Source: a virus. Taken from it: DNA of 42,060 nucleotides. The notes under the pieces were generated by a model that searched no databases, was not told the origin of the DNA, and saw nothing but the letters and a program-made list of their open reading frames with translations. Location of the stretch: UHGV virus genome UHGV-0469413; one strand, written 5' to 3'. The position numbers and the translations under genes are program-made. Below are positions 39,659 to 40,066 of the stretch, one piece after another (the stretch's first letter is position 1; each line of letters starts with the position of its first letter).

Positions 39659-39662
39659 AATC

Positions 39663-39691
39663 TTGACAATTTCTGCCCTGGCTGGTATTAT
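39663..39691 (+). promoter_or_regulatory. Consensus sigma70 promoter P1 (TTGACA-17-TATTAT) for small RNA 1
   Basis: Perfect -35 at 39663-39668 and -10 at 39686-39691 with a 17-nt spacer, 5 nt after the giant gene's stop. Confidence 0.7.
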
Positions 39692-39725
39692 GTTGACATA
39701 GCATTTGCTATCAGGCATATTGCCT

Positions 39726-39755
39726 GTTCAGGGGTTTTCCTCTGTGAATTGAAAC
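39726..39755 (+). CRISPR. Solitary CRISPR repeat-like unit, type I-C-like: GUUCAGGGG-UUUU-CCUCUG stem-loop plus UGAAUUGAAAC handle
   Basis: 30 nt. Architecture (GU, 6-7 bp GC stem, 4-nt loop, UG(G/A)AUUGAAAY 3' handle) matches subtype I-C repeats such as GTCGC...GCGTGGATTGAAAT. There is no array. Confidence 0.55.
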
Positions 39756-39796
39756 ATGTAGTTTAGTATTTATGCAGTGGCTAATACTACAGGAAA

Positions 39797-39828
39797 AAGC
39801 GCTTGAAGTAATTCCGGCGCTTTTTTTG
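39797..39828 (+). terminator. Intrinsic terminator of RNA 1 (AGCGC...GCGCU stem plus U7)
   Basis: GC stem followed by TTTTTTT at 39821-39827. Confidence 0.65.
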
Positions 39829-39864
39829 TTGCTGTCTGATGGCATTTTCAGCGGACAAAAAATC

Positions 39865-39893
39865 TTGACAATTCCCGTCCGGGTTGATATTAT
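39865..39893 (+). promoter_or_regulatory. Consensus sigma70 promoter P2 (TTGACA-17-TATTAT) for small RNA 2
   Basis: Perfect hexamers with a 17-nt spacer. Confidence 0.7.
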
Positions 39894-39926
39894 ATTGATA
39901 TGGCATTTGCTATTGGGCATACGCCC

Positions 39927-39956
39927 GTTCAGGGGTTTTCCCCTGTGAATTGAAAT
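39927..39956 (+). CRISPR. Second solitary type I-C-like repeat unit (perfect CAGGGG/CCCCUG stem)
   Basis: 30 nt, one stem mismatch fewer than copy 1. Identical 3' handle UGAAUUGAAAU. Confidence 0.55.
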
Positions 39957-39981
39957 CTATTTTTTAAAGTTTCAGAAACGG

Positions 39982-40012
39982 AAAGCGCTTAGAGTATTCT
40001 AAGCGCTTTTTG
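39982..40012 (+). terminator. Strong intrinsic terminator of RNA 2 (12-bp perfect stem AAGCGCTTAGA / TCTAAGCGCTT, 5-nt loop, T-run)
   Basis: Perfect inverted repeat followed by TTTTT. Confidence 0.8.
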
Positions 40013-40066
40013 TGTAGAAGCGACAAATATTTCTTGCAAATAAAAATATTAATACGTTTAAGTATT

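What the first reader, a model, noticed from the sequence alone, without database searches (positions are those of the whole stretch)
39660..40015. Two promoter-driven small RNAs that look like solitary type I-C CRISPR repeats with spacer-length tails: candidate RNA anti-CRISPRs or a viral mini-array
Directly after the last virion gene there are two tandem ~120-130 nt transcription units. Each has a textbook TTGACA-17-TATTAT promoter and an intrinsic terminator. Both share a 57-nt core. It starts with two small hairpins whose stems carry compensatory changes between the copies (CAGGCA/UGCCUG versus GGGC/GCCC), which argues for selection on RNA structure. Next comes a 30-nt element GUUCAGGGG-UUUU-CCCCUG-UGAAUUGAAAU. 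Its layout (GU, GC stem, tetraloop, then a UG(G/A)AUUGAAAY 3' handle) is the signature of subtype I-C CRISPR repeats, where Cas5c binds the hairpin and AUUGAAAC becomes the crRNA 5' handle. After this repeat-like unit each RNA carries a unique 25-41 nt segment in the position of a spacer, and then the terminator hairpin, which could mimic the 3' repeat hairpin. No cas genes and no array are present. Two readings fit. One is repeat-mimic RNAs that sequester Cas5c/Cas7c of a host I-C system (RNA anti-CRISPR or solitary-repeat-unit style). The other is single-spacer mini-arrays that hijack host Cascade against competing phages. Co-location with the Cas8c-like operon just downstream makes a coordinated anti-I-C function the more attractive hypothesis.
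Basis: partly seen in the sequence, partly recalled or inferred. Interest (0 to 1): 0.88.

Follow-up and report, generated by a model that had tools for sequence, protein, structure and literature searches.

The report
Phage RNAs mimicking type I-C CRISPR repeats
A temperate gut Enterocloster phage carries two small promoter-to-terminator RNA genes, each built like one type I-C CRISPR repeat plus a short spacer-like tail, next to a truncated Cas8c gene, so they are most likely RNA anti-CRISPRs of an already described kind.

Summary
Two tandem units (39663-39830 and 39865-40013) each have a TTGACA-17-TATTAT promoter with an extended -10 TG, three small hairpins, a spacer-length tail and a terminator hairpin. 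The third hairpin directly abuts UGAAUUGAAAY, the 11-nt type I-C crRNA handle.

Related Enterocloster phages are about 88-90% identical in the flanks. At the same slot they carry one unit with a different hairpin (CACUG/CAGUG) and the canonical handle UGGAUUGAAAY. Hairpin plus handle is therefore the conserved, exchangeable module. These are the features reported as critical for Cas5c processing.

The 298-aa neighbour is a Cas8c N-terminal domain fused to a small DNA-binding-like domain. It belongs to a large phage family of truncated Cas8c proteins. Host I-C loci from other gut bacteria carry CreR-like regulatory RNAs with the same layout: degenerate repeat, handle, about 20-23-nt pseudo-spacer, hairpin.

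The best reading is viral crRNA-like RNAs that load host Cas5c/Cas7c, acting as Racr-type decoys and possibly as Cracr-type silencers of host cas genes.

Not shown: expression, and the Enterocloster I-C repeat and cas promoter, which I could not retrieve. No protospacer was found for any tail.

This is a new member of a known kind. Interest is moderate.

The parts
39663..39691 (+). Unit 1 promoter TTGACA-17-TATTAT with extended -10 TG; predicted start near 39698
39698..39726 (+). Unit 1 5' hairpins H1 (39698-39711) and H2 (39712-39726). They are absent from sister-phage units and are probably 5' stabilisers of the precursor (inference).
39726..39755 (+). Unit 1 repeat-like element (psiR) GUUCAGGGGUUUUCCUCUG + UGAAUUGAAAC. 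The handle is 39745-39755. The predicted Cas5c cut lies between 39744 and 39745.
   Evidence: Cas5c cleavage rule from PMC8524198
39756..39793 (+). Unit 1 tail, 38 nt, with an internal 10-pair bulged hairpin; no target found
39794..39830 (+). Unit 1 intrinsic terminator-like hairpin plus U-tract. It is also the first terminator after the 2804-aa ORF.
39865..39893 (+). Unit 2 promoter TTGACA-17-TATTAT with extended -10 TG; predicted start near 39900
39900..39926 (+). Unit 2 5' hairpins H1' (39900-39913) and H2' (39915-39926)
39927..39956 (+). Unit 2 repeat-like element GUUCAGGGGUUUUCCCCUG + UGAAUUGAAAU. The handle is 39946-39956. The predicted Cas5c cut lies between 39945 and 39946.
39957..39981 (+). 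Unit 2 tail, 25 nt, AT-rich. It is 22/25 identical to the tail of the single unit in E. lavalensis-type phages, which equals the background identity of the flanks.
39982..40013 (+). Unit 2 terminator-like hairpin (12-bp stem, tetraloop, U-rich tail)
40016..40167 (+). Regulatory region of the downstream operon. It has a promoter-like site at 40107-40135 and two operator-like palindromes TAATACG-N5-GTATTA at 40050-40067 and 40114-40131. The palindromes are conserved in distant phages that carry the same gene pair.
40168..40509 (+). 113-aa ORF of unknown function (phrog_18666). It always precedes the Cas8c-like gene in the closer relatives.
40522..41418 (+). Truncated Cas8c: N-terminal domain (residues about 1-240) plus a C-terminal Xis/BldC/MerR-like winged-helix-like module (about 246-284). 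Candidate protein anti-CRISPR fused to its own regulator (inference).

Best explanation

Inferred mechanism, step by step:
1. A strong sigma-70-type promoter drives high expression.
2. [quoted passage not shown]
3. Cas5c stays on the 11-nt handle. Cas7c polymerises along the 25-38-nt tail until it meets the terminator hairpin, which stands in for the 3' repeat hairpin.
4. The resulting complexes carry no useful guide. They compete with bona fide crRNAs for Cas5c, Cas7c and Cas8c (Racr-type decoy).

The layout also equals that of host CreR regulatory RNAs: own promoter, degenerate repeat, handle, short pseudo-spacer, hairpin. I therefore consider it about equally likely that at least one tail also guides the loaded Cascade to the Enterocloster cas/creR promoter and silences it (Cracr type).

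The neighbouring truncated Cas8c probably acts on the same complex as a defective large subunit.

Shown: sequence anatomy, conservation pattern, genomic context. Inferred: expression, Cas5c/Cas7c loading, inhibition.
For: 1. Anatomy is confirmed.

2. The 11-nt handle variant is that of real I-C arrays. More than 120 array loci were retrieved, and sampled cas proteins beside these arrays carry Butyricicoccus, Porphyromonas, Akkermansia and Lachnospiraceae names. I-C cas operons lie alongside the arrays.

3. The retained features are those reported as critical for Cas5c: the stem base and the 3' overhang, especially U22-G23-G24. Loop and 5' overhang are not critical (PMC8524198).

4. Comparative test. 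In phages whose flanks are 85-94% identical, the promoter-to-hairpin segment is replaced. The hairpin geometry and the handle persist: CACUG-AAAG-CAGUG + UGGAUUGAAAC in the E. lavalensis-type phages (L019, L209-L216), and ACACUG-AAAA-CAGUGU + GGAUUGAAAU in L011-L014.

5. Across 972 kb of related phage loci, perfect handles abutted by a hairpin occur only at these units. Matches with up to 2 mismatches are at shuffle level, about 40 against 35-46.

6. The I-C-specific neighbour is a Cas8c N-terminal domain: Pfam E 3.4e-19; the family profile hits the N-terminus of full-length Cas8c at about 1e-34; the AlphaFold model (pLDDT 83) has as its top five PDB matches Cas8c chains of I-C Cascade structures at E 1e-8 to 8e-7.

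7. Host CreR-like elements lie between cas3 and cas5c in all five I-C locus types whose cas3-cas5c spacer I read (L188 group, L108, L391, L397, L399). They have the same layout with 19-23-nt pseudo-spacers. In four of the five (not clear in L108) the pseudo-spacer is complementary to the element's own -10 region.

8. Precedents: RacrIC1 next to acrIC5 inhibits I-C (PMC10651486); viral single psiR-psiS-terminator Cracrs and two-unit I-C Cracr arrays (bioRxiv 2024.10.29.618823); viral Cas homologues acting as Acrs (bioRxiv 2023.06.24.545427).

9. The host genus is Enterocloster. A strain with prophages described as having an 8-kb 3' ORF, as here, has a I-C system.
Against: - No expression data exist.
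- The Enterocloster I-C repeat and cas promoter were not obtained. Repeat identity and tail complementarity are therefore untested.
- Outside the handle, the stems do not resemble any array repeat found. All 32 real repeats start GT(C/T)G(C/T). A covariance model of them scores the units only through the handle (16.7 and 15.2 bits, E 0.04 and 0.1). That model was trained on arrays retrieved with the same handle, so it is not an independent test.
- Rfam gives nothing, including its CRISPR-DR families.
- Conservation of the unit 2 tail (88%) equals the neutral background, so it says nothing about tail function.
- The units are confined to one phage clade. None of the 66 IMG/VR phages, nor the more distant relatives, with the truncated Cas8c carries one within the 3-10 kb of flank fetched.
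- The L011 tail is GC-rich and not promoter-like.
Confidence: 0.62

Rival explanations
1. The RNAs are single-spacer guides (mini-array style). They use host I-C Cascade-Cas3 against competing phages or plasmids, and the tails are true spacers.
For: The handle-tail-hairpin layout would give a crRNA-like product. The unit 1 tail (38 nt) is near natural I-C spacer length. Two different tails sit in one phage and a third in L011.
Against: No tail has an extendable or TTC-flanked match in the window, related phages or host flanks. IMG/VR hits to a 16-mer (unit 1 tail) and a 17-mer (unit 2 and L019 tails) stop at the seed, and 0 of 172 have a TTC PAM; the L011 tail was not scanned there. Three of four tails are 23-25 nt, shorter than array spacers. 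There is no second repeat. Tail divergence tracks background rather than turnover by acquisition. No adaptation genes are present.
Confidence: 0.06
2. The RNAs work with the phage's own truncated Cas8c. The handle-bearing RNA nucleates host Cas5c/Cas7c. The viral Cas8c N-domain keeps the PAM-reading part but lacks the C-terminal/Cas11-like part. It replaces host Cas8c and gives a phage-programmed complex that binds DNA without cutting and silences chosen host or phage promoters.
For: RNA units and the Cas8c-like operon are strictly adjacent in three phage variants. The family keeps an invariant Q (Q219 in the motif GYIASQK). This lies near the position of the conserved glutamine wedge Q212 of D. 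vulgaris Cas8c; that is a numbering coincidence and was not structurally aligned. The Cas8c N-terminus is the PAM reader, and the C-terminal domain moves on R-loop formation. Cracr RNAs do reprogram Cas effectors.
Against: Most phages with the truncated Cas8c have no such RNA nearby, so the protein does not need the RNA. No target was found for any tail. A simple poison-subunit role (as for AcrIB3 and AcrIB4) explains the protein without the RNA.
Confidence: 0.1
3. The units are ordinary phage small RNAs, or promoter/terminator modules, unrelated to CRISPR. The 11-nt handle match would be fortuitous or a decayed relic of a captured repeat.
For: Outside the handle there is no sequence similarity to array repeats. 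There is no Rfam family. No targets or expression data exist. A similar-looking hit in another phage group proved to be a minus-strand terminator plus promoter.
Against: A perfect 11-mer abutted by a hairpin is expected about 0.05 times in the 972 kb scanned, yet it occurs in three sequence-independent versions at one orthologous slot. Hairpin and handle are retained although the stem sequence is replaced. A Cas8c homologue, specific to subtype I-C, lies 200 bp downstream. The strand, promoters and terminators all agree with plus-strand RNAs.
Confidence: 0.15

Closest known systems
RacrIC1 and other solitary-repeat-unit RNA anti-CRISPRs (Camara-Wilpert et al. 2023, PMC10651486)
   Same: Both are phage-borne and intergenic. 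Both are a single I-C repeat-like hairpin plus handle with no array, have a promoter close by, and sit next to (candidate) acr genes. The proposed action is competition for Cas proteins.
   Different: RacrIC1 is 29/34 identical to a real repeat and is co-transcribed downstream of acrIC5. Here the stems match no known repeat. Each unit has its own consensus promoter and terminator. There are two units in tandem, extra 5' hairpins, and the units lie upstream of the protein operon. The units were not found in the part of the published SRU tables held as text; one file is truncated.
Cracr RNAs, viral mimics of CreR/CreA crRNA-like regulators (Liu et al., bioRxiv 10.1101/2024.10.29.618823)
   Same: The architecture psiR + short psiS + rho-independent terminator is the one described for CracrVA1. 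Multiplexed two-unit I-C Cracr arrays aimed at variants of one subtype are reported. Pseudo-spacers are shorter than array spacers. Synergy with a co-encoded Acr protein is reported.
   Different: The defining feature is at least 9 PAM-proximal matches to a host cas or creT promoter or to a host CreR pseudo-spacer. This could not be shown because the host locus is missing. Here each unit is a separate transcription unit rather than an array.
Host CreR-like elements upstream of cas5c in type I-C loci (seen here in L188, L108, L391, L397, L399)
   Same: Own promoter. Degenerate repeat hairpin whose stem differs from the array repeat (for example CAGCUUG...CAAGCUG). Handle (A/U)GAAUUGAAA(U/A/G). 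Pseudo-spacer of 19-23 nt. GC-rich hairpin.
   Different: These elements lie inside cas operons. In four of the five locus types their pseudo-spacers are complementary to their own -10 region. The phage tails are not complementary to their own promoters or to anything in the window.
Viral Cas-homologue anti-CRISPRs such as AcrIB3 and AcrIB4 (Katz et al., bioRxiv 10.1101/2023.06.24.545427); this concerns the neighbouring gene
   Same: Both are an orphan, truncated Cascade large-subunit homologue on a phage, outside any cas operon, forming its own clade apart from real Cas8.
   Different: AcrIB4 resembles the last 90 residues of Cas8b. This family is the N-terminal, PAM-reading domain of Cas8c, here fused to a small DNA-binding-like domain. 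Its activity is untested.

Membership tests
Racr / solitary repeat unit (SRU) | Sequence matches a known CRISPR repeat of a defined subtype | tested here: inconclusive
   The 11-nt handle is identical to that of more than 120 real I-C arrays. The stem has the right position and geometry but an unrelated sequence. A covariance model of 32 I-C repeats scores 16.7 and 15.2 bits (E 0.04 and 0.1) through the handle only. Rfam CRISPR-DR families give no hit.
Racr / solitary repeat unit (SRU) | Solitary: no further repeats at spacer distance, no array, intergenic on a mobile element | tested here: met
   The copies are 201 nt apart, each with its own promoter and terminator. There is no other handle in the window. 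The region lies between the 2804-aa ORF and the 113-aa ORF of a prophage.
Racr / solitary repeat unit (SRU) | Promoter within 250 bp upstream | tested here: met
   Promoters with 11/12 consensus matches lie 35 nt upstream of the first hairpin.
Racr / solitary repeat unit (SRU) | Host carries a CRISPR-Cas system of the matching subtype | not testable with these tools
   The host genus is Enterocloster. E. clostridioformis LM41 is reported to have I-C and prophages with an 8-kb 3' ORF (PMC11318856). The genomes of the actual hosts could not be read.
Racr / solitary repeat unit (SRU) | Inhibits CRISPR interference by sequestering Cas proteins | not testable with these tools
   This needs interference assays and pull-downs.
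Cracr (viral CreR/CreA mimic) | psiR + short psiS + 3' hairpin or terminator, encoded outside a CRISPR-Cas locus on a virus or plasmid | tested here: met
   Shown. Tails of 25, 25 and 23 nt (and 38 nt for unit 1) compare with 19-23 nt in host CreR-like elements.
Cracr (viral CreR/CreA mimic) | At least 9 PAM-proximal nucleotides matching a host cas or creT promoter, or a host CreR/CreA pseudo-spacer | tested here: inconclusive
   No such match was found in the window, Enterocloster flanks, or 128 loci retrieved for I-C arrays or cas genes from other taxa. The relevant Enterocloster locus was not available.
Type I-C CRISPR array repeat | Regular repeat-spacer periodicity with adjacent cas1/cas2 | tested here: not met
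   There are two copies 201 nt apart. No adaptation genes are present.
Type I-C CRISPR array repeat | Cas5c substrate determinants: stem-loop, cleavage site at the 3' stem base, U-G-G/A then AUUGAAAY overhang giving an 11-nt 5' handle | tested here: met
   The sequence shows this directly in all four unit versions. The determinants are taken from PMC8524198. Cleavage itself is untested.
Viral mini-array (repeat-spacer-repeat against related viruses) | Spacer flanked by two repeats and matching other mobile elements | tested here: not met
   There is a single repeat per unit. No protospacers were found.
Any Rfam family | Score at or above the gathering threshold | tested here: not met
   There were 0 hits at gathering threshold over the window. 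Only noise (E at least 1) appeared in 39640-40040.

The most novel reading that the evidence does not exclude
The RNA units and the adjacent truncated Cas8c form one two-part device. The RNA recruits host Cas5c and Cas7c. The viral Cas8c N-domain has its PAM reader intact, lacks the C-terminal/Cas11-like domain, and is fused to a DNA-binding module. It replaces host Cas8c. The phage would thus convert the host's I-C interference machinery into its own complex that cannot recruit Cas3, guided by the tails to silence host cas genes or other loci. The exchangeable psiR cassette would track Cas5c and repeat variants among Enterocloster strains.
Probability: 0.12. Interest if true: 0.85.

Novelty: new member of a known kind. 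Interest (0 to 1): 0.5.

Why it matters
If these RNAs work as proposed, they add a gut-Firmicute type I-C example to the RNA anti-CRISPRs. Their repeat mimic is too diverged for similarity-based SRU searches to be likely to find, which suggests that such surveys undercount them.

The locus pairs an RNA inhibitor with a Cas8c-derived protein. It shows cassette-like exchange of the mimic between otherwise 88-90% identical phages. That makes it a compact system for studying how Cas5c recognises its substrate and how phages track host repeat variants.

The compact handle-tail-terminator scaffold could also serve as a minimal I-C guide design.

None of this changes current concepts. Racrs, Cracrs and viral Cas-derived Acrs are all described already.

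Tried and rejected
1. Finding the Enterocloster I-C repeat and cas promoter. The single genome scan went to the Cas8c-like family. It gave the host genus but no cas locus. The single metagenome scan, for arrays with the GAATTGAAAY handle, gave arrays whose sampled loci trace to other taxa. The closest full-length Cas8c representatives carry almost no taxon names. A Lachnospiraceae Cas7c query saturated at 78% identity or more without Enterocloster names. Three look-ups of abundant Cas7c clusters gave I-C loci with no convincing spacer against this phage and no tail-like CreR.

2. Cultured-phage database: no DNA or protein match.

3. IMG/VR pattern scans for both psiR types: 0 hits.

4. A candidate hairpin + ATTGAAAT in the L056-L079 phage group was rejected. 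It is a minus-strand terminator followed by a TTGCAC-17-TATAAT promoter.

5. ATTGAAAT just upstream of the Cas8c-like gene in L039-L055 lies inside coding sequence.

6. A third TGAATTGAAA in the host flank (L001 13202) has no hairpin and follows a stop codon, so it is chance.

7. A published I-C SRU with the same 14-nt 3' end (L390) sits in a different context, with no Cas8c-like gene.

8. Coding potential. ORF 39772-39948 (58 aa) crosses a terminator and a promoter, has no ribosome-binding site, and that stretch is absent from the single-unit sister phages. I rejected it.

9. PDB sequence search with the Cas8c-like family profile found nothing. Fold search was needed.
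Full report
**What the window is.** The 42-kb window is a complete or nearly complete temperate phage.
- It encodes a serine recombinase (19-1605, minus strand), terminase, portal, major head protein, an internal virion protein, tail fibres and lysis genes.
- A 2804-aa ORF ends at 39658.
- The same phage occurs in many human-gut assemblies, both circularly permuted and integrated.
- Close relatives are prophages of Enterocloster lavalensis and E. aldenensis.
- A paper on E. 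clostridioformis LM41 describes two prophages with an unusually large 8-kb ORF at the 3' end making up almost 20% of the genome. That fits this phage. [quoted passage not shown]

**The observation.** It is confirmed.
- Two of the four best sigma-70-type promoter matches in the window are TTGACA-17-TATTAT at 39663-39691 and 39865-39893, both with an extended -10 TG. Shuffles give 0.44 such sites.
- From the predicted starts (about 39698 and 39900) both RNAs fold into the same three hairpins, then a single-stranded stretch, a tail and a strong terminator hairpin. MFE z-scores are -4.1 and -6.4.
- The two cores differ at a few positions. All five substitutions in stems keep pairing: one double change and three wobble-compatible single changes. 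This is supportive but thin, because there are only two sequences.
- The third hairpin (CAGGGG-UUUU-CCYCUG) is followed directly by UGAAUUGAAAC (39745-39755) or UGAAUUGAAAU (39946-39956). These are the only two such 10-mers in the window.

**Is the element really I-C-like?**
Many hold dozens of repeats.
- I derived 32 distinct repeats of 31-34 nt. All have the form GT(C/T)G(C/T)-stem-loop-stem-TGAATTGAAAY. I-C cas operons (cas3, cas5c, cas8c, cas7c, cas4, cas1c) lie alongside the arrays.
- The A-for-G handle variant is therefore a genuine, common I-C handle.
- In these repeats, as in the phage units, the 3' arm of the stem abuts the U of the handle. That is where Cas5c cuts to leave the 11-nt 5' handle.
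- Published work reports that Cas5c recognition depends on the stem base and the 3' overhang, especially U22-G23-G24, and not on the loop or the 5' overhang (PMC8524198). These are the parts the phage units keep.
- The stems themselves resemble no array repeat. A covariance model of the 32 repeats ranks the two units first in the window, but only through the handle (16.7 and 15.2 bits, E 0.04 and 0.1). The training arrays were retrieved with that handle, so this is not an independent test.
- Rfam gives nothing.

**The comparative evidence is the strongest.** In sister phages, the slot between the giant ORF and the 113-aa gene holds a single unit.
- L019 and L209-L216 (E. lavalensis type) have a promoter, GUAUCACUGAAAGCAGUG + UGGAUUGAAAC, a 25-nt tail and a terminator.
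- L011-L014 have a promoter, GUGACACUGAAAACAGUGU + GGAUUGAAAU, a different 23-nt tail and a different terminator.
- These units carry the canonical I-C handle.
- Between the window and L019, the giant-ORF end, tail, terminator, downstream region and 113-aa gene are 85-94% identical. The promoter-to-hairpin segment cannot be aligned.
- L019 and L011 share the promoter and hairpin but not the tail.
- Hairpin plus handle is therefore an exchangeable cassette whose geometry and handle are kept while its sequence is replaced. The break point lies at the handle.
- The 88% identity of the unit 2 tail to the L019 tail equals the background, so it is not evidence for a constrained tail.
- Across 972 kb of related phage loci, perfect handles abutted by a hairpin occur only in these units. 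Looser matches are at shuffle level.

**The neighbour.**
- ORF 40522-41418 matches the first 260 positions of Pfam Cas_Csd1 (E 3.4e-19).
- Its homologues form a large family of 212-330-aa proteins (with one 464-aa exception), with at least 135 clusters at 90% identity. 66 IMG/VR phage loci were retrieved.
- The family profile aligns to the N-terminal 250-290 residues of full-length Cas8c at about 1e-34, well separated from family members.
- An AlphaFold model (pLDDT 83) finds Cas8c chains of I-C Cascade structures as its five best PDB matches (E 1e-8 to 8e-7).
- The last 50 or so residues weakly match Xis/BldC/MerR-type DNA-binding domains.
- Some relatives are fused to an HTH_3 domain (P0044).
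- The promoter of the 113-aa/Cas8c-like operon is flanked by TAATACG-N5-GTATTA palindromes that persist in distant phages with the same gene pair.
- This looks like an autoregulated anti-defence operon. It fits the published concept of viral Cas homologues acting as defective Cascade subunits.

**A third reading.** While looking for host loci, I found a solitary repeat-like element between cas3 and cas5c in all five I-C locus types whose cas3-cas5c spacer I read.
- The elements are L188 5214-5345 and its relatives, plus L108, L391, L397 and L399.
- Each has a degenerate hairpin, a handle (A/U)GAAUUGAAA(U/A/G), a 19-23-nt AT-rich pseudo-spacer and a GC-rich hairpin just before cas5c. A consensus-like promoter was read upstream in most.
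- In four of the five locus types (not clear in L108) the pseudo-spacer is complementary to the element's own -10 region. In L188, for example, there are 8 seed matches plus 5 more, with GTC in the PAM position.
- These match the published description of CreR autoregulators. A recent preprint shows that phages encode mimics of them, called Cracrs. Examples include single psiR-psiS-terminator genes and two-unit I-C arrays.
- The phage units share this layout, including the short tails and a repeat stem unlike the array repeat.
- Whether a tail matches the Enterocloster cas promoter could not be tested.

**What the tails do not match.** I found no PAM-flanked seed match in the window, the Enterocloster flanks or 128 loci retrieved for I-C arrays or cas genes from other taxa. 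Local BLAST found nothing. IMG/VR hits to the leading 16-mer of the unit 1 tail and the 17-mer shared by the unit 2 and L019 tails stop at the seed, and none has a TTC PAM. The mini-array reading therefore has no support.

**Conclusion.** The units are best explained as viral crRNA-like RNAs directed at the host I-C system. They would act at least as competitive decoys for Cas5c and Cas7c, and possibly as CreR mimics that silence cas expression. They are encoded beside a Cas8c-derived candidate inhibitor. All components belong to described classes (Racr, Cracr, viral Cas-derived Acr), so I rate this a new member of a known kind. It has some unusual traits: autonomous tandem transcription units, extra 5' hairpins, a strongly diverged and exchangeable repeat mimic, and the pairing with a Cas8c N-domain. 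Function, expression and the match to the host's own repeat remain unshown.

Noticed in passing
window 40522-41418; loci L015-L088, L209-L217: There is a large phage family of truncated Cas8c proteins (N-terminal, PAM-reading domain only, mostly 212-330 aa). It has at least 135 clusters at 90% identity and 66 IMG/VR loci were retrieved. The window's member carries a C-terminal Xis/BldC/MerR-like module, and some relatives carry an HTH_3 domain. It is a candidate family of Cas-derived anti-I-C proteins.
   Followed up: partly
window 40050-40067 and 40114-40131; also L015 about 5540-5620, L018 about 3250-3280, L217 about 720-790: Operator-like palindromes TAATACG-N5-GTATTA bracket the promoter of the 113-aa/Cas8c-like operon. 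They are conserved in phages that otherwise differ. This suggests autoregulation like that of acr-aca operons. The repressor is not identified.
   Followed up: partly
L188 5214-5345; L108 (reverse orientation) about 2930-3090; L391 about 7400-7460; L397 about 6350-6460; L399 about 690-790: Host type I-C loci of gut bacteria carry a CreR-like solitary repeat plus a 19-23-nt pseudo-spacer between cas3 and cas5c. In four of the five locus types (not clear in L108) the pseudo-spacer is complementary to the element's own -10 region. In L188 and L399 GTC, not TTC, sits in the PAM position.
   Followed up: partly
window 31244-39658; L001-L014, L209-L216: The giant ORF varies in length (2573-2804 aa) among phages that are otherwise nearly identical. 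It has only faint matches (DUF7217, LPD3). It fits the 8-kb 3' ORF described for LM41 prophages 1 and 4.
   Followed up: no
L211 about 2415-2425: An assembly gap (a run of N) falls exactly in the 3' arm of the repeat-like hairpin of one metagenomic copy.
   Followed up: no
L018 4620-4660: A 9-bp hairpin followed by TGGGTTGAAAA lies about 75 nt downstream of the Cas8c-like gene. It has two mismatches to the I-C handle, which is chance level by the shuffle control. It may simply be the operon terminator.
   Followed up: no
L397 12784-12801 versus L011 8491-8508: A spacer of a gut I-C array (repeat GTCACCCCCCACGCGGGGGTGCGAATTGAAAT) shares its first 17 nt (18 nt counting the last repeat base) with the L011-type phage and then diverges. 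No TTC PAM is present. Probably chance (E 0.024).
   Followed up: partly
window 3336-3364: A third consensus-grade promoter (TTGACA-17-TATTAT, no TG) lies in the lysogeny/early region upstream of ORF 3559-4179.
   Followed up: no
window 19-1605 (minus strand) and 13035-14144: The phage encodes both a large serine recombinase and a tyrosine integrase-like protein. It also has a PAPS-reductase-like gene (11329-12456).
   Followed up: no
L390 2168-2199: A published-type I-C solitary repeat (GTCAGTCTCCTTGTGAGGCTGTGAATTGAAAT) shares its last 14 nt with the window's units. It lies in the 5' leader of a small-gene operon that contains a DUF4160 protein and a PemK/MazF-like protein. No Cas8c-like gene is present.
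   Followed up: partly
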